Origin: Chiloscyllium plagiosum
Taxonomy: Eukaryota
DNA length: 20,000 nucleotides
Direction: 5' to 3'
Assembly: GCF_004010195.1 (NCBI RefSeq)
Contig: NC_057718.1
Span: 104,707,946-104,727,945, forward strand
Both the position numbers and the translations under genes were made by a program. Shown piece by piece: positions 1 through 19,107 of the stretch; position 1 is the first letter of the stretch, and every line of letters begins with the position of its first letter. Below the pieces are notes generated by a model. That model was not told the DNA's origin, did not search any database, and worked only from the letters and a program-made list of their open reading frames with translations.

Positions 1-581
1 CAGCACAAGGGCCCACCTGGAAACCACCAACAGGCAGACTGCTGCCTCACACCAATGTCATACAAACTCTGTACTCTGTCAGTAATCCGCTCTGTAACAG
101 CCATCATCCTAGGTCCCCAGCTCCCCATGTCCTGCTACCCTTTGCCCTCTCGTGGAGATCAATGTGGTTCCTTGGTTCTGATCAAACAGCTGAAATATTG
201 GCACTTTCTTTTCAGAATTTCGCTTATTAAGTTCACTTTCCTCTTGCAATCTCAAACACCTCTTCACTCATCTCAAGTTCTATATAGGATTTTTAAAAAA
301 GTCTGCCTTGACATTTAAAACATTTTTCTTGCATTAACAGATTGTAAGTTAATGTCCCAGTTTTTGTTGTGGACAGACATGTGGATGAACAGAGTATCTG
401 ATGAGACTTTCCCCTTGTTCCACCATCAAAACATTCATTCTGATTTCTTCAGACTGTTATCGGGTTTCCCGGGGGACTTACACCCCGTTGCTCCCCTTTT
501 CAACTTGTTCCCATTTCCCACTTTCTGCTGATTTGTTGCTTCTTCACAAACACAAAGGGTGACAGAGGAAATATAGTGTGA

Positions 582-695
582 AAATAAAATACTGCAGCTG
601 CCACAAATCTGAAACAAAATCAGAGAGTGCTGAAGAAACTCAGCGGGTCTGGCAACATCTGTGGGGACAGGAACAGGGCTAATGTTTGGAGTCTG
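582..695 (-). mobile_element. Degenerate copy of short Penelope-like-derived element (subfamily B); hammerhead motif decayed
   Basis: aaatctgaaacaaaatcagagagtgctgaagaaactcagcgggtctggcaacatctgtgggg aligns by eye to the copies at 6296, 12697 and 17289. Strand is given relative to the hammerhead sense. Confidence 0.6.
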
Positions 696-728
696 CATGG
701 AGCGTGATGTGTTGATTCAGATTCACAG

Positions 729-820
729 ATGGAAATGTGTTGCTGGAAAAGCGCAGCAGGTCAGGCAGCATCTAGGGAACAGGAGAATCGACGTTTCGGG
801 CATTAGCCCTTCTTCAGGAA
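729..820 (-). mobile_element. 92-bp short element (Penelope-like-derived, subfamily A) with 16-bp TSD
   Basis: Flanked by the exact direct repeat tgattcagattcacag at 713-728 and 821-836. The body gctggaaaagcgcagcaggtcaggcagcatc...tcgacgtttcgggcattagcccttcttcagg matches the copies at 5439 and 18445. Confidence 0.85.
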
Positions 821-821
821 T
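783..821 (-). ncRNA. Candidate minimal type-I hammerhead ribozyme
   Basis: Minus strand reads AUUC-CUGAAGA-A-GGGC(UAAU)GCCC-GAAAC-GUC-GAUUCUC: both conserved core boxes, a 4-bp stem II, a minimal palindromic stem III and a GUC cleavage triplet. Stem I is imperfect. Confidence 0.65.
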
Positions 822-1075
822 GATTCAGATTCACAGCCAGACGTCAGGTCTCATGCTACATCCATTTTTGAAGAGCCGCTGTTTGGATGGGACGTTTGGA
901 GGAGAGCACATGCTGACAGAACAGTGTCCTCTTACAATCGAGTGCAGGGAGACCAGCCTGGAAAAAGAGGATTGAAAAAACGGAGGTAAAATGATTAAAA
1001 ATGTGGAGCTCGAGCTGCAGATCTCAGACACCGCAAACAACAATTCACAGCTGGGCCCGCTAGAGAGGATCTCCA

Positions 1076-1229: not shown

Positions 1230-1612
1230 AAACAGGCATTTGGTTCAGTGAGCTGGAGAGTCCTTGAACCTTGTGTTGGTTCTGGGTATTTGCATCTCCT
1301 CTTTGGTTTTCTGAGAAAAAAATCCTTTCACTGTGCCTTTGGTCATAATTCAGCCCAACAATCCTGATATTTGGGCACCCGGGGAGGGCAGATCGGAGGA
1401 GCTCCCTGTGGGTCTGCTCCTGGGCCTGGCCAGGCTGGTTATAAACAGGTCCAGGCAGCGAGCCATGGAGGGGGTGGTCATCCCTGCCAACTGCCTGCCT
1501 GTCTTCTGCAGTTACCTTTGTGCGTGGGTGTCCTTGGAAAGGGAGCACACCATGTCCACCAATGGTGGGCACTGAAGGGTACAGTGCTTTAATTCCCCTC
1601 CCACTCCATCCT
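1230..1612 (+). mobile_element. Tx1-clade LINE ORF2 C-terminal fragment (frameshifted), copy 1
   Basis: Encodes FSPTILIFGHP..RSEELPVGLLLGLARLVINRSRQRAMEGVV..NCLPVFCSYLCAWVSLEREHTMSTN, homologous to the minus-strand element at 13219-13431. Confidence 0.75.
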
Positions 1613-1994
1613 AAACAGGCATTTGGTTCAGTGAGCTGGAGAGTCCTTGAACCTTGTGTTGGTTCTGGGTATTTGCACCTCCTCTTTGGTTTTCTGAGAA
1701 AAAAATCCTTTCACTGTGTCTTTGGTCATAATTCAGCCCAACAATCCTGATATTTGGGCACCCGGGGAGGCAGATCGGAGGAGCTCCCTGTGGGTCTGCT
1801 CCTGGGCCTGGCCAGGCTGGTTATAAACAGGTCCAGGCAGCGAGCCATGGAGGGGGTGGTCATCCCTGCCAACTGCCTGCCTGTCTTCTGCAGTTACCTT
1901 TGTGCGTGGGTGTCCTTGGAAAGGGAGCACACCATGTCCACCAATGGTGGGCACTGAAGGGTACAGTGCTTTAATTCCCCTCCCACTCCATCCT
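1613..1994 (+). mobile_element. Tx1-clade LINE ORF2 C-terminal fragment, tandem copy 2
   Basis: Nearly identical to 1230-1612 (2 substitutions and a 1-bp deletion seen). Confidence 0.75.
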
Positions 1995-2756
1995 GAGTGA
2001 GCCCCTTCCCCAGTTCTCTACCTCTTCCTCACCTACAGAATTATTGCACTGTCCCTGATGGTCTTTGCAGGTAATGTGATGCATTGGAAGGACGGGTGGT
2101 GAATGAAGGTGAAAGGTTACACAGAGCTGAGGGGGTGCATTGGCTTCAGAGTGAAAGTGCTTCTGTATATAAACCTCACAGCCACTGACCTTGCAGTGGG
2201 AACACAGTGAGCTGTCAGCTTTGGACCCATCCCTGACCTCAGTCTGATCATTTAGACAAAGGAGTCTCATCGACACCTCACCAGCTGATGCAATAAAGCT
2301 CACAATTTCACTTTTGTGACATCAATCTCGAAATAGCCAAATTTGTTTAATGAATTCTTGAAAGAGCGTGTATTTACATGAGCCCTTCCTGTACAGACAC
2401 AAGGTCAGTGCTCAGTGCATGGTCCTTCCCAGGAGACTGGTGGATTTTTCGGTGTACCATGGTTTCCATGGAGATACCTTGCTCCAGTGTAGTTTTCCCA
2501 GTTTATTAAATATGTGATTATTCCTGATGATGTTCTTACTGTCGCTGCGTGTCACTATAACTCTTTGTTCCTGGTCAGCAACCCCATTGGACTAGTTTTG
2601 CAGAAAAGAGATGATTTTGTGTATTTTGTTTTAACGTGATAAAGTAGTTCAGTACAATGTCATCTTGAATCCCATTACTTTCTCTAAACCTTGTTCGATT
2701 CATTAATTTTTATGCAGGAGTTTTCAGAGGTTTTGGTTGTGGATTTTTGCGCATTG

Positions 2757-3256
2757 NNNNNNNNNNNNNNNNNNNNNNNNNNNNNNNNNNNNNNNNNNNN
2801 NNNNNNNNNNNNNNNNNNNNNNNNNNNNNNNNNNNNNNNNNNNNNNNNNNNNNNNNNNNNNNNNNNNNNNNNNNNNNNNNNNNNNNNNNNNNNNNNNNNN
2901 NNNNNNNNNNNNNNNNNNNNNNNNNNNNNNNNNNNNNNNNNNNNNNNNNNNNNNNNNNNNNNNNNNNNNNNNNNNNNNNNNNNNNNNNNNNNNNNNNNNN
3001 NNNNNNNNNNNNNNNNNNNNNNNNNNNNNNNNNNNNNNNNNNNNNNNNNNNNNNNNNNNNNNNNNNNNNNNNNNNNNNNNNNNNNNNNNNNNNNNNNNNN
3101 NNNNNNNNNNNNNNNNNNNNNNNNNNNNNNNNNNNNNNNNNNNNNNNNNNNNNNNNNNNNNNNNNNNNNNNNNNNNNNNNNNNNNNNNNNNNNNNNNNNN
3201 NNNNNNNNNNNNNNNNNNNNNNNNNNNNNNNNNNNNNNNNNNNNNNNNNNNNNNNN
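2757..3256. other. Assembly gap (500 N)
   Basis: Exactly 500 N. The round number suggests a placeholder of unknown true size. Confidence 0.99.
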
Positions 3257-3262
3257 GGAGGG

Positions 3263-3384
3263 CTTCACCCCAAACACTGGAAACGCTGAACAACAACAAG
3301 CCAGACTGAATGTGGCCCAGACAGCCCATGAGCTGATCAACATGGTGAGACTTCACCCAGAACACTGGAAATGTTGAACAACAA
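3263..3384 (+). repeat. Imperfect 34-bp direct repeat, period 88 bp, adjacent to the gap
   Basis: cttcaccccaaacactggaaacgctgaacaacaa (3263-3296) vs cttcacccagaacactggaaatgttgaacaacaa (3351-3384), 30/34 identical. Confidence 0.85.
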
Positions 3385-3707
3385 ACCATCATGTTTCTGA
3401 AGAAAACAAGTAGCCTAAGCCATTTGGAGGAAACAGCAGCTGCCCCCTCCAGCTACACGCCTGATTGGTCAGGTTGGGTTTGCGAATAGGGATAGCTCCC
3501 CTATTTGACCGTGAGGGTTATACCAGGAAGGGCTGGGTTTAATGATGAGTCTTTTTTTTCCCTATCCAGAGTGCTCTTAGACACAGCTCTCACCATCACC
3601 AAATCACCCTGCCATTTCCTGTTCCTTTATCTATTAACTGCCCCCAACAAATCACCCGAGTAGCCAATGGGATACTTACTGATGACCCCTAACACACTGA
3701 CCAGTGT

Positions 3708-3776
3708 GGAGTGCATCATTTCTCCCTCCAATTCTATTTTGATTTAGTCCCTACCCTCCCCTTCACTGAAAAAAAA
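3708..3776 (+). mobile_element. 69-bp 5'-truncated Tx1-derived insertion with A-tail and 17-bp TSD
   Basis: The TSD aacacactgaccagtgt lies at 3691-3707 and 3777-3793. The insert ggagtgcatcatttctccctccaattctattttgatttagtccctaccctccccttcactg+A matches the reverse complement of ~13228-13290. Confidence 0.85.
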
Positions 3777-4025
3777 AACACACTGACCAGTGTAAACCAG
3801 GTGCTGAGCATGGAGTTAGGAAATGCAACACATCTGAAAAATGCCCAGGCTTTATTAATAGAACATTGGAACCATGATCAGGAAGCAGAATATTTGATAC
3901 CCCTCCATACGCTTCGTAAAAAGGTTTGGGGGGAAACCCCAGGAAAATTCCAACCTGTTTCCCTCCACAGGTCCTGCCTGAGGTGGCGGCTCGTCCCTGG
4001 ACTTCCTGGTTTTGCCTTTCTATTT

Positions 4026-4891: not shown

Positions 4892-4959
4892 TCTATCTTT
4901 TGGGTCTCTCTGAAAACAGAACATGGTTTCCTCGCCTGTCAAAGTCCTTGATAAATGTA

Positions 4960-5185
4960 AAAAACAAAAGTATTGCGGATGCTGCAAATCAGAAACAAAA
5001 ACAGCAATTACAGGACTGGAAAAGCTCAGCAAGACTGGCAGCATCTATGGAGAGAAAGCAGAGTTAACATGTTGAGTCCAATTTCTGACAAAGGGTCACT
5101 GGATCCAAAACTTTAACTCTGCTTTCTCTCCATTGAAGCTGCCAGACCTGCTGAGCTTTTCCAGCAATTGCTGTTTGTGTCTTTG
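4960..5185. mobile_element. Fold-back (inverted dimer) of the subfamily B short element
   Basis: Arms 5016-5067 and 5113-5164 are reverse complements at 48/52. The degenerate hammerhead-like ctgacaaagggtcactggatccaaaac lies between them. Confidence 0.85.
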
Positions 5186-5438
5186 ATCAATATCCCCGTC
5201 AGAATCCCCACCCCCAATCTGTCAGGTTGTCCCTGATTGGTATAAACTCCTTGTTCACACATCCTGCAACAATCTGCTCTAGCCTCTCTGAGCCTAGTCT
5301 GGATTACAGGCACTGTGTTCCATGTCTAATCTCAATAAGATTCTACACAATGTATTTGCTTTTTCGTCCCGTCCCCTGAATGATACGTCCTAGCGGTTTG
5401 TCTATTTGCTTCCCCACGCTCAACAAATGAGGCATTGA

Positions 5439-6295: not shown

Positions 6296-6460
6296 CAAAA
6301 ACAGAAAGAGCTGTGGATACTGTAAATCAGAAACAAAAACAGAAATAGCTGGAAAAGCTCAACAGGTCTGGCAGCATCCGTGAAGACAAATCAGAGTTAA
6401 CTTTTCAGGTCGAGTGACCCTTCCTCAAAACTGATGGTACCTGGCTAGGAAGGGTCACTA
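6296..6460 (-). mobile_element. Short element subfamily B with start of an inverted second arm
   Basis: Body aaatcagaaacaaaaacagaaatagctggaaaagctcaacaggtctggcagcatcc...gagttaac. A perfect 13-bp inverted repeat agtgacccttcct (6413-6425) / aggaagggtcact (6447-6459) follows. Confidence 0.8.
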
Positions 6461-6468
6461 CCCCTTTT

Positions 6469-7047
6469 GGGCAGCACGTTGGCTCAGTGGTTAGCACTGC
6501 TTCCTCACAGCACCAGGGACCCAGGTTCAATTCACAGCCTCGGCTTCAGGTGACTCTCTGTGTGGAGTTTGCACATTCTCCCAGTGTCTGTGTGGGTTTG
6601 CTCTGAGATTCCTCCCACAGTCCAAAGATGTGCAGGTTTGGTGGAAAGGCCATGCTAAATTACCCGTACTGTGCAGGGACGTGCAGGTTAGGTGGAAAGG
6701 CCGTGCTAAATTACCCGTACTGTGCAGGGACGTGCAGGTTAGGTGGAAAGGCCGTGCTAAATTACCCGTACTGTGCAGGGACGTGCAGGTTAGGTGGAAA
6801 GGCCATGCTAAATTACCCGTACTGTGCAGGGACGTGCAGGTTAGGTGGAAAGGCCATGCTAAATTACCCGTACTGTGCAGGGACGTGCAGGTTAGGTGGA
6901 AAGGCCATGCTAAATTACCCGTACTGTGCAGGGACGTGCAGGTTAGGTCCATTAGTTAGCTGGGTGGGTTACTCTTCAGAGGGCCAGTGCGGACTTGTTG
7001 GGCCGAAGGGCCTGTTTTCACACTGTAGGGAATTCTCTGATTCTAAT
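6469..7047 (+). mobile_element. tRNA-derived V-SINE (HE1-like) with CR1-like 3' tail
   Basis: Box A tggctcagtgg and box B ggttcaattc, a V-domain-like tgtgtggagtttgcacattctcccagtgtctgtgtgggttt...cctcccacagtccaaagatgtgcagg, and tail ttgggccgaagggcctgtttt...ctgtagggaattctctgattcta. Confidence 0.9.
6630..6948 (+). repeat. 51-bp minisatellite, 6 full units plus 13 bp, inside the V-SINE
   Basis: Unit gtgcaggttaggtggaaaggccatgctaaattacccgtactgtgcagggac starts at 6630, 6681, 6732, 6783, 6834, 6885 and 6936 (partial). Confidence 0.97.
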
Positions 7048-12696: not shown

Positions 12697-12800
12697 AAAC
12701 AGAAACAGAAATTGCTGGAGAAACTCAGCAGCTTTGGCAGCATATGTGGAGGGAGAAACAGAGTTAACATTTTCAGTGCAATGACTCTTCTTCGGAACTA
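12697..12800 (-). mobile_element. Short element subfamily B, degenerate hammerhead
   Basis: aacagaaattgctggagaaactcagcagctttggcagcatatgtggagggagaaacagagttaacattttcagtgcaatgactcttcttcggaact. Confidence 0.75.
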
Positions 12801-12992: not shown

Positions 12993-13431
12993 TTCTATTT
13001 CTATATTTATTTATTTATTTCCCCCCCCCCCACTACTGCCAGATAGTGGTAGTGCTTAGCTTTCCCCCAGCACCCATGTTGTGTGTGTGTGCAGGTGTGA
13101 GACACAGTGAAAGACACAAGGTGTACAAATCTTTATTAATTTCCCACCACCAGGAAGCAAGGAAACAGCCAAGTGGCAGTGACTGGCCATGCCCTTCTCA
13201 GAGGGCAATGCTGCCTGATCAAAAAAAAGTGAAAGGGAGGGCAGGGATTAAATCAAAATAGAGTTGGAGGGGGAAATTAAAACACTCCACTCCCTGCGGC
13301 GCCCACCTCTCCCTGAAAACCTCGAGGGTGTTGGTACACACTGCGTGCTCCTTCTCGAGGGACACCCAGTCTAGGACGTAACCACGGAAGAGGGGCAGGC
13401 AATCAGCCATAATGACCCCCTCCATGGCCCA
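12993..13431 (-). mobile_element. Tx1-clade LINE 3' end (ORF2 C-terminus, 3' UTR, A-rich tail) with 14-bp TSD
   Basis: Peptide AMEGVIMADCLPLFRGYVLDWVSLEKEHAVCTNTLEVFRERWAPQGVEC, AATAAA and an (aaat)n tail. Flanks are ccagagcaatttat (12979-12992) and ccagagcagtttat (13432-13445). Confidence 0.85.
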
Positions 13432-17216: not shown

Positions 17217-17288
17217 ACCTTTCCACTCATGATGCACTGGAACACTCCATTATTGACACCGGTACATTACAGGTTATAAAATACAGCT

Positions 17289-17374
17289 CAGAAATTGCTG
17301 GAGAAACTCAGCAGATCTGACAGCATCTGTGGAGAGAAAAATGTTAACATTTCGTGTCCAGTGACTCTCCTTCA
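17289..17374 (-). mobile_element. Short element subfamily B, truncated at the adjacent CR1 3' end
   Basis: cagaaattgctggagaaactcagcagatctgacagcatctgtggagagaaaaatgttaacatttcgtgtccagtgactctccttca. Confidence 0.75.
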
Positions 17375-17378
17375 TAAT

Positions 17379-18425
17379 TAGAGTCATAGAGATGTACAGC
17401 ACGGAAACAGACCCTTCGGTCCAACCCATCCATGCTGACCAGATATCCCAACCCAATCTAGTCCCACCTGCCAGCACCTGGCCCATATCCCTCCAAACCC
17501 TTCCTATTCATATACCCATCCAAATGCCTTTTAAATGTTGCAATTGTTCCAGGCTCCACCACATCCTCTGGCAGCTCATTCCACACACGTACCACCCTCT
17601 GTGTGAAAAAAGTAGCTCCTTAAGTCTCTTTTATATCTTTCCCTTCAAACTCTAAACCTATGCCCTCTAGTTCTGGACTCCCCCATCCTAGGGAAAAGAC
17701 TTTGTCTATTTACCCTATCCATGCCCTTCATAATTTTATAAACCTCTATAAGGTCACCCCTCAGCCTCCGACGCTCCAGGGAAAATAGCCCCAGCCTGTT
17801 CAGCCTCTCCCTGTAGCTTAAATCCTCCAACCCTGGCAACATCCTCGTAAATCTCTTCTGAACCCTTTCAGGTTTCACAACATCTTTCTAATAGGAAGGA
17901 GACCAGAATTGCACACAATATTCCAAAAGTGGCTGAACCAATGTCCTGTACTCAATACTCTGATCAATAAAGGAAAGCATAGCAAACGCCGCCTTCACTA
18001 TCCTATCAACCTGCAACTCCACTTTCAAGGAGCTATGAACTTGCACTCCAAGGTCTCTTTGTTCAGCAACACGCCCCAGAACCTTACCATTAAGTGTATA
18101 AGTCATGCTAAGATTTGCTGTCCCAAAATGCAGCACTTCGCATTTATCTGAATTAAACTCCATCTGCCACTCCTCAGCCCTTTGGCCCATCTGATCAAGA
18201 TCCTGTTGTAATCTGAGGTAACCTTCTTCGCTGTCCACGACACCTCCAATTTTGATGTCATCTGCAAACTGACTAACTGTACCTCTGATGCTCACATCCA
18301 AATCATTTATATAAATGACAAAAAGTAGAGGACCCAGCACCGATCCTTGTGGCACTCCACTGGTCACAGGCCTCCAGTCTGAAAAACCAACCTTCCACCA
18401 CCACCCTCTGTCTTCTACTTTTGAG
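17379..18425 (-). mobile_element. CR1 LINE 3' ~1 kb with RT C-terminal motifs
   Basis: [27 protein letters not shown]...[26 protein letters not shown] and ERLNRLGLFSLERRRLRGDLIEVYKIMKG, with the same tail as 4026. Confidence 0.95.
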
Positions 18426-18444
18426 ATGGACTGGAAGGGGAGCA

Positions 18445-18566
18445 GGTAAAAACAATGACTGCAGATGCTGGAAACCAGATTCTGGATTAGTGGTGCTGGA
18501 AGAGCACAGCAATTCAGGCAGCATCCGAGGACAGGCAAAATCGACGTTTCGGGCAAAAGCCCTTCA
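18445..18566 (-). mobile_element. Short element subfamily A variant; hammerhead lacks the CUGA box
   Basis: Minus strand reads UGA-A-GGGC(UUUU)GCCC-GAAAC-GUC-GAUU. Body is gtggtgctggaagagcacagcaattcaggcagcatccgagg. Confidence 0.8.
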
Positions 18567-18928
18567 CCCCCTTGACAGGCCCCAGCTGCTGAACTGTTTC
18601 TGACTCGATATCGGCATCATGGACTTGTTCTGCTTCCCATTTATGCCTGTGACCCTCCAGGATGACAGTCCCAAGTTAAGTATTTGGCTTACGTTTCATT
18701 GCTTATTCTTTTTAGGATTTTAATGTTTGGATAATGAGCATCTATCAAAAATAAGTTTGTCTCCACAAGCCTGTATCTATAGGTTAGATCCATAACTCGC
18801 AGAATCAGCACCCTTCTCCTTTTCAAATCACTATTCTCATCATTGTGTCTGTAAAGGACAAAGTCTCTCCCAGTTCACCCCATTGACCTGTGCCTTCAAT
18901 TTACAAAGGTTATTTCTTCTGGCTCAGC

Positions 18929-19107
18929 GACCCTTCTCCAGAACTGTGTTTGGAATTAATTCCAGTTCCAAAGAAGGGTCACTGGACCCAAAATGTTAAC
19001 TGTGCTTTTCTCTCCGCAGATGCTGCCAGACCTGCTGAGTTTTGCCAACAATTTCCATTTTTGTTTCTGATTTCCAGCATCTGCAGGTCTTTGGATTTTT
19101 GTTTATT
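18929..19107 (+). mobile_element. Short element subfamily B with partial inverted arm
   Basis: cagttccaaagaagggtcactggacccaaaatgttaactg...gatgctgccagacctgctgag. 18929-18946 is the reverse complement of 18963-18980 at 15/18. Confidence 0.8.

What the first reader, a model, noticed from the sequence alone, without database searches (positions are those of the whole stretch)
713..836. 92-bp non-coding insertion with an intact hammerhead-ribozyme core and a perfect 16-bp TSD
Seen: the insert 729-820 sits between exact tgattcagattcacag repeats. Its minus strand begins with CUGAAGA-A-GGGC(UAAU)GCCC-GAAAC-GUC. It has no ORF, Pol III boxes or poly(A). Known: Penelope-like elements carry minimal type-I hammerheads with a palindromic stem III that cleave as dimers, and an extra nucleotide after A9 occurs in some natural hammerheads. 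Inferred: this is a recently mobilised, ribozyme-bearing miniature non-autonomous element (retrozyme-like). Stem I is imperfect here (AUUC/GAUU), so activity is uncertain.
Basis: partly seen in the sequence, partly recalled or inferred. Interest (0 to 1): 0.7.

Follow-up and report, generated by a model that had tools for sequence, protein, structure and literature searches.

The report
Fresh Penelope-type hammerhead stub, shark-like genome
This 92-base insert is a real and very recent insertion (related individuals carry the empty site), but it is likely just the ribozyme-bearing end piece of an abundant Penelope-like jumping gene, an already described kind of thing whose hammerhead is predicted to be inactive here.

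Summary
The 16-bp direct repeat is exact, and the minus strand carries a complete minimal type-I hammerhead core of the kind described for Penelope-like elements (PLEs; PMC4209133). The empty site (one 16-mer, 108 bases skipped) is present in 6 of 8 runs laid: four samples of the closest organism and two of a relative about 4% divergent. The other two runs do not cover the flanks. No listed piece shows the filled allele, so the insert is very young and seen only in this assembly. It is not a stand-alone mini-element. About 30,000 contigs per run lay on the stretch, and the family runs on beyond both ends of the insert. The insert also spans the predicted cleavage bond, so its template was uncut RNA, not a retrozyme monomer. 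Best reading: a truncated PLE end module inserted by target-primed reverse transcription, with short homologies at both junctions. The link to a PLE RT/GIY-YIG frame could not be tested here, and cleavage is untested. This scan has reported the same kind of stub many times on other DNA of this genome, polymorphic ones included. Ordinary in kind.

The parts
713..728 (.). Target-site duplication, left copy (original target). Its plus-strand 3' end at 728 is the inferred primer; its last six bases match the family tail in register at 5 of 6.
   Evidence: Exact repeat; single copy in the empty site, joint 712->821 with both=16; tail letters from loose ends (rows before 733 and 723)
729..820 (-). 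Inserted stub: hammerhead-bearing end module of a very high-copy repeat family, inferred to be the PLE pseudo-LTR end plus the start of the tail
   Evidence: Skipped in 6 of 8 runs; 29,665-34,740 contigs per run laid on 350-1200 at 88%, with depth concentrated on 727-813; 8 related pieces elsewhere in the window
790..817 (-). Minimal type-I hammerhead core with stem II, extra A after A9 and no helix III loop; predicted cut between 790 and 789
   Evidence: Sequence; matches the min-HHR traits listed in PMC4209133; stem II pair probability 0.98-1.00 in folds up to 201 nt
785..789 (-). 3' strand of stem I; pairs with 821-818 at 3 of 4 positions, or with the duplication-derived 826-822 in a competing helix
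   Evidence: stem I p<=0.06; competing helix p about 0.40 in the 108-nt RNA
729..729 (+). One base at the priming junction that departs from the family letter (untemplated or misincorporated first base, or a subfamily variant)
   Evidence: Loose ends 'before 730' end in AGC, so 730-732 match a family variant and 729 does not
821..836 (.). Target-site duplication, right copy; its first three bases (821-823) are also the next three bases of the family body (junction microhomology)
   Evidence: family pieces match through 823 and then continue into a shared sequence (loose ends 'behind 823')
575..693 (-). Older, decayed copy of a sister subfamily lying 20 bases from the target; present in the empty alleles too
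   Evidence: empty-site contigs cover 635-712 or more

Best explanation
The 92 bases are a very recent insertion into a site that is empty in related individuals, and they are likely a doubly truncated end piece of an abundant Penelope-like retrotransposon, likely laid down by target-primed reverse transcription of uncut element RNA. Shown: the empty site, the 16-bp duplication, the minimal hammerhead core, and that other copies of the family continue past both ends of the insert. Inferred: an element-encoded endonuclease made staggered nicks 16 bases apart. The plus-strand 3' end at 728 primed cDNA inside the element's tail, close to where many family copies end, perhaps helped by a 5-of-6 match between target and tail. 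Synthesis ran 92-95 bases through the intact hammerhead and stopped just in front of it, where many family copies stop. The other target end then annealed over 1-3 shared bases (821-823) and the gaps were filled. The hammerhead is a passenger: it can form helix III only as a dimer, and in this locus it is predicted not to fold into the active form. The stub has no promoter signature or coding frame and is most likely dead on arrival.
For: Empty site: joint 712->821 (108 skipped, 16 ambiguous) in X1, X5, X2, X9 (organism A, 4 samples) and X11, X13 (organism B). The X9 contig matches 428 flank bases with 2 differences; organism B differs at 29 of about 707. Family size and youth: 1,794-3,618 contigs per run at 99% or more. 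Variants of 5% or more inside the insert fall at 753, 761, 773-779, 793 (minor, a CpG position) and the stem II loop base 804; none is listed in the stem II pairs or CUGA..GA. Body upstream: 106-116 contigs per run in three runs and 25 raw RNA reads at agreement 0.82 continue behind 823 with one shared sequence. Fixed stop: 97-146 contigs per run end at 820/821 with unrelated letters behind (agreement 0.33). Tail: 286-446 contigs per run continue before 733 for about 6-9 shared bases, and 41 continue past 723. Structure across 7 window copies: 89.6% of cells paired against 10-49% for slid controls; pair 2.1-1.1 is C-G here and U-A in 5 sister copies. Literature: min-HHRs occur mostly as single motifs 'probably related to truncated PLEs' and carry the 9/10.1 extra base (PMC4209133). 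A purified PLE protein starts reverse transcription inside the RNA downstream of the HHR, and unprocessed RNA is its main substrate (PMC11167929). PLE insertions show TSDs, tails and 5' microhomology joins (PMC3846280 passages).
Against: No RT or GIY-YIG frame was linked to this family here: no genome is held, pattern scans found 0 loci, and protein searches with the insert's frames gave nothing relevant. The filled allele is not shown by any listed piece in 8 runs (the tables are cut). PMC11167929 reports initiation at a site not homologous to the cut DNA and a nick preference for ATT, whereas this copy has a 5-of-6 match (chance about 0.005 in register, post hoc) and no ATT directly at either inferred nick. 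This copy lacks the extra C that often follows 821 in other copies. PLE TSDs in the passages read were 8-10 bp, shorter than 16. The covariation count rests on 7 related copies (34 of 500 shuffles reach the number of both-sided changes).
Confidence: 0.85

Rival explanations
1. A stand-alone, SINE- or retrozyme-like non-autonomous unit of about 95 bases, transcribed on its own and mobilised in trans by PLE proteins.
For: Many family copies stop at 820/821 and end a few bases beyond 733, so about 95-100-base copies are a recurring product. The insert has its own TSD. Metazoan non-LTR retrozymes are proposed to derive from PLE pLTRs (bioRxiv 10.64898/2026.07.22.740005, parts 1-3 of 5 read).
Against: Single hammerhead, no tandem. 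The insert spans the cleavage bond with 31 bases upstream, so it is not a cleavage-defined monomer. Similar numbers of copies run on into a shared body. Fixed ends follow equally from a fixed RNA start and a fixed internal priming site of the full element.
Confidence: 0.08
2. Assembly artefact: a repeat read was spliced into the locus and the 16-mer doubled.
For: No listed piece in 8 runs shows a filled junction. The window is a scaffolded assembly with a 500-N gap and a 382-base near-perfect tandem duplication nearby.
Against: The junctions look biological: both fall at the family's usual ends, with 3 shared bases at one side and a non-family base at the other. The window's flanks differ from every run laid, so the assembled haplotype was not among them. 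Contigs drop rare alleles.
Confidence: 0.05
3. An old insertion that was lost in other lineages by recombination between the two 16-mers.
For: Precise deletion between direct repeats would give exactly the empty form seen.
Against: It needs independent loss in organism A haplotypes and in organism B, about 4% divergent. The two 16-mers are still identical, and the insert has thousands of contigs at 99% or more, whereas none of the 9 other window copies keeps an exact flanking repeat above 6 bases.
Confidence: 0.02

Closest known systems
Minimal type-I hammerheads (min-HHR) of metazoan Penelope-like elements (Cervera and De la Pena 2014, PMC4209133; abstract, Results and Discussion read; 2 of 3 supplementary files searched)
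   Same: No helix III loop, palindromic 15.2-16.2, extra base between 9 and 10.1, G10.1-C11.1 pair, short helix I, mostly solitary copies tied to truncated PLEs.
   Different: Helix II is 4 bp (7-8 in Schistosoma) and helix I has a U.U. No shark name was found in the two supplementary files searched. This copy is shown to be a fresh insertion with an empty site.
Insertion units of endonuclease-bearing PLEs: pLTR, optional tail, TSD (Arkhipova 2013 PMC3846280 and Craig 2021 PMC8557442, passages; Frangieh 2024 PMC11167929, parts 1-2 of 4)
   Same: HHR in the terminal module, cDNA starting inside the RNA downstream of the HHR, uncut template, variable tail, TSD, microhomology at the 5' join.
   Different: Far shorter (92 bp, no coding remnant, no inverted copy); TSD 16 against 8-10 in the rotifer passages; a target/tail match at the priming end, which the in vitro study did not find.
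Non-LTR retrozymes of animals (Cervera and De la Pena 2020, PMC7229834, passages; Li, Clavereau and Pollet 2026 preprint, parts 1-3 of 5)
   Same: Non-coding, carries a type-I hammerhead, related to PLE pLTRs, can have TSDs longer than 4 bp; dispersed monomers are described.
   Different: Retrozymes are tandem repeats (monomers about 300 bp; consensus range 51-972 bp) with at least two hammerheads that give circular RNAs. This is a single 92-bp unit with one minimal hammerhead, not phased on the cleavage site.

Membership tests
PLE minimal hammerhead (min-HHR) | Conserved core CUGAnGA ... GAAA ... UH in type-I order without helix III loop | tested here: met
   817-790 on the minus strand
PLE minimal hammerhead (min-HHR) | Extra base between 9 and 10.1; G10.1-C11.1; palindromic 15.2-16.2 | tested here: met
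   A810; G809-C798; C793-G792 within ACGU (traits)
PLE minimal hammerhead (min-HHR) | Short helix I of 4-5 bp | tested here: inconclusive
   3 of 4 pairs with a U.U; pair probability <=0.06; pairing pattern kept in sister copies
PLE minimal hammerhead (min-HHR) | Self-cleavage as a dimer or with protein help | not testable with these tools
   Needs an in vitro assay. The predicted homodimer minimum pairs in another register that ties up G12-A14.
Endonuclease-bearing Penelope-like element (parent family) | RT plus GIY-YIG frame attached upstream of the terminal module | tested here: inconclusive
   A shared body begins behind 823, but only 30 letters are shown. No long copy could be fetched; protein searches were blank. 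An earlier scan note (e1-9369093) claims the link; unchecked.
Endonuclease-bearing Penelope-like element (parent family) | Variable 3' tail downstream of the pLTR, no poly(A) | tested here: met
   Short and long tail classes in loose ends and in window copy 18447-18565; no poly(A) in the insert
Endonuclease-bearing Penelope-like element (parent family) | Target-site duplication confirmed by an empty site | tested here: met
Non-LTR retrozyme | Tandem repeat with at least two hammerhead-bearing units | tested here: not met
   One unit between the TSDs
Non-LTR retrozyme | Expressed, self-processed linear and circular monomer RNA | not testable with these tools
   One polyA single-cell run had no read on the flanks and no pile-up of ends; the library type is not suited to the question.
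Rfam hammerhead families | Score at or above the gathering threshold | tested here: not met

The most novel reading that the evidence does not exclude
Penelope-like elements are transposing in living sharks, and these roughly 95-base stubs are complete copies of a discrete short RNA stretch: from the transcript start just in front of the hammerhead to an internal priming site chosen partly by base pairing with the nicked target. The stubs could then serve as their own templates, a SINE-like cycle with no Pol III promoter. Head-to-tail joints that return to within 0-3 bases of the cleavage bond in other copies would record jumps onto ribozyme-cut RNA and the birth of tandem retrozymes.
Probability: 0.15. 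Interest if true: 0.55.

Novelty: new member of a known kind. Interest (0 to 1): 0.2.

Why it matters
As a single locus it matters little: it is one more solitary PLE hammerhead stub among very many. Its value is as a clean, unmutated insertion with a known pre-insertion site. It shows that the family has moved within the time of present-day variation in this species, gives a presence/absence marker, and preserves both junctions for testing how PLE proteins prime (with or without target pairing) and where their RNA starts. If such stubs proved to be self-propagating or ribozyme-processed, that would bear on the open questions of what PLE hammerheads do in vivo and how retrozymes arise.

Tried and rejected
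Rfam: 0 hits at gathering score in the window; four unrelated weak hits and no hammerhead at E<=10 in 500-1000. Own genome not held. Pattern scans for family copies gave 0 loci in viral, metagenome (25, 47) and prokaryote genome contigs (32, 48); this is expected for an animal repeat and is no evidence on the family. Protein searches: the 33-codon minus frame gave 2 unrelated repetitive hits, the plus-strand 104-codon frame gave none, and another minus frame read with X at two stops gave none among longer proteins. Pfam on 21 of the 85 stop-to-stop frames found only one RVT_1 (17888-18616) and no GIY-YIG. Whole-insert folding is no better than shuffles (z -1.2 to +0.6). RNA: no RNA holder listed. 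The one raw RNA run laid had 227 family reads (226 only partly on the stretch), both directions, none on the flanks and no pile-up of ends; uninformative on expression or cleavage of this copy. X8 has no flank cover and was not counted for or against. Literature searches for a description of this shark family found none; subscription papers, Repbase/Dfam entries, one supplementary file of PMC4209133 and the preprint's supplements were not seen and may name it. Rejected: a cleavage-defined retrozyme monomer (wrong phase), a coding role for the 661-975 frame, and chance duplication.

Full report
Observation. The sequence is as described. Bases 713-728 and 821-836 are identical and the match cannot be extended; 100 order-3 Markov simulations of the window gave no exact repeat of 16 or more bases at 30-400 bases' distance. 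On the minus strand the hammerhead core runs from C3 at 817 to C17 at 790, with an extra A at 810, a 4-bp stem II and the palindrome ACGU in place of helix III; the predicted cut is 790|789. Stem I pairs 818-789, 819-788 and 821-786 with a U.U between. Rfam does not detect the motif. It does carry the traits that Cervera and De la Pena list for PLE minimal hammerheads: a base between 9 and 10.1, G10.1-C11.1 and palindromic 15.2-16.2 (PMC4209133, Results and Discussion).

The insertion is real in kind and very young. Of 24 runs listed I laid 8. A contig that joins 712 to 821, skipping 108 bases with 16 ambiguous letters, is present in X1 and X5 (organism A) and X11 and X13 (organism B), and in X2 and X9 (organism A). 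X8 and the RNA run X21 have no cover of the flanks. So 6 of 6 informative runs, from six samples, show one copy of the 16-mer and no insert. The X9 contig differs from the window flanks at 2 of 428 bases; organism B differs at 29 of about 707. No listed piece shows a filled junction, but the tables are cut and contigs drop rare alleles, so the filled allele rests on this assembly alone. None of the 9 other related copies in the window keeps an exact flanking repeat above 6 bases, which fits their greater age.

It is a piece of a very abundant family. Blastn finds 8 related pieces in the window at 68-86% identity (alignments). At 88% likeness, 29,665-34,740 contigs per run lay on 350-1200, with depth concentrated on the insert, and 1,794-3,618 of them are 99% alike or better. 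These are contig counts, not copy numbers. Variants of 5% or more inside the insert lie at 753, 761, 773-779, 793 (minor) and the stem II loop base 804; none is listed in the stem II pairs, in CUGA..GA or at the U.U, so the imperfect stem I looks like the family state rather than decay (positions near contig ends are under-reported). Across 7 window copies the stem I and II pairs hold in 89.6% of cells against 10-49% when slid, and pair 2.1-1.1 is C-G here and U-A in five sister copies. The sample is small and related: 34 of 500 shuffles reach the count of both-sided changes.

Where the family's copies end. Upstream of the hammerhead two classes appear among the loose ends shown (1,195 further rows were not shown). 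In three runs 97-146 contigs stop at 820/821 with unrelated letters behind, beginning with C in X1 and X13. In three runs 106-116 contigs match through 823 and continue into one shared sequence, as do 25 raw RNA reads. Downstream, 286-446 contigs per run continue before 733 for about 6-9 shared bases and then diverge, and a smaller class runs on into a longer tail. This copy ends within a few bases of both common end points. Its junctions are ambiguous in the way retrotransposon junctions often are. Bases 821-823 belong equally to the duplication and to the family body, so the duplication is 16 bases at most and 13 if these are given to the element. At the other end the last six target bases match the tail in register at five positions (chance about 0.005, post hoc), followed by one non-family base at 729.

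Mechanism. The anatomy fits target-primed reverse transcription by a PLE. Frangieh et al. (PMC11167929, parts 1-2 of 4) show that a lizard PLE protein nicks both strands, starts cDNA inside the RNA about 110 bases into the region downstream of the hammerhead start, uses mainly uncut RNA, and that its hammerhead cuts only with protein present. Here the insert includes the cleavage bond and 31 bases upstream of it, so its template was uncut. I infer nicks after 728 (plus strand) and before 713 (minus strand), priming in the tail, 92-95 bases of synthesis, and closure over 1-3 shared bases. I cannot tell whether the template was a short leader beginning at 821 or a longer RNA truncated there. The stop at the family's usual position favours the first; the match through 823 and the missing extra C favour the second; I lean about 60:40 to the first, as a judgement and not a computation. 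Two points sit less well with the in vitro work: it found no homology at the priming site and a preference for ATT at nicks.

What was not shown. I could not attach the family to an RT/GIY-YIG frame: no genome is held, six pattern scans were empty, and protein searches were blank or irrelevant. The PLE assignment therefore rests on the hammerhead type, the tail, the body that follows 823, and the literature; an earlier scan note claims a GIY-YIG upstream, unchecked here. The label 'shark' comes from my recall of the window's repeats and from earlier scan notes, not from a named record.

Ribozyme activity. A monomer cannot close helix III. Stem II forms with p 0.98-1.00 in RNAs up to 201 nt but is lost in a 401-nt read-through (p 0.003). 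Stem I never exceeds p 0.06, and five bases of the duplication (826-822) can take its 3' strand (p about 0.40 in the 108-nt RNA). The homodimer minimum pairs in a register that ties up G12-A14. These programs ignore tertiary contacts, so this is a prediction of inactivity only. Published min-HHRs showed no cleavage as monomers and low cleavage as dimers; 8 of 9 frog retrozyme dimers did not cleave.

Comparison and verdict. It works like the short end of an endonuclease-bearing PLE insertion. It fails the defining test of non-LTR retrozymes, tandem units with at least two hammerheads, although those are thought to derive from the same PLE ends. Four literature searches found no description of this shark family, within the limits of an open-access library. 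This scan has recorded the same family and pattern many times in this genome, including young stubs absent from other individuals (unchecked notes, not counted as evidence). I score it as a new member of a known kind, interest 0.2.

Noticed in passing
other family copies, seen in table 5c (window coordinates 820/821 back to 787-790): Recurrent head-to-tail joints from the front of the hammerhead back to within 0-3 bases of the predicted cleavage bond, with 1-3 extra letters (often C); one row in X8 returns exactly to 790. These would be tandems of bare 32-36-base hammerhead units. They could be template jumps onto cut RNA, or jumps guided by a 5-base match between 818-822 and 785-789.
   Followed up: partly
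window 4955-5187: Two sister-subfamily copies head to head at their hammerhead ends (65-base arms, 86% complementary): the inverted arrangement known from PLE insertions.
   Followed up: no
window 575-693, 6296-6433, 12697-12800, 17280-17378, 18962-19101: A second, older subfamily with a 5-6-bp stem II, a GUU cleavage triplet and a U-A first pair in stem I; cores partly decayed.
   Followed up: partly
window 1230-1994: 382/383-base tandem duplication, 99% identical, just before the 500-N gap region; recent duplication or assembly overlap.
   Followed up: no
window 6640-6950: 51-base unit repeated about six times inside what looks like a tRNA-derived SINE (label recalled, no call).
   Followed up: no
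window 3691-3800 and 13228-13277: A 50-base piece flanked by an exact repeat of 16 or more bases at offset 86, matching in reverse the end of another repeat at 13228-13277: probably another very short, TSD-flanked retroelement stub.
   Followed up: no
window 17888-18616 (minus): LINE-type reverse transcriptase fragment (RVT_1, E 8e-16) directly abutting the long tail of the hammerhead-family copy at 18447-18565, whose own hammerhead is cut off before CUGA.
   Followed up: partly
window 899-915, 1015: Organism A is polymorphic in the right flank: an 8-base deletion and 899T in X1 and X5 but not in X2, X9, the window or organism B.
   Followed up: no
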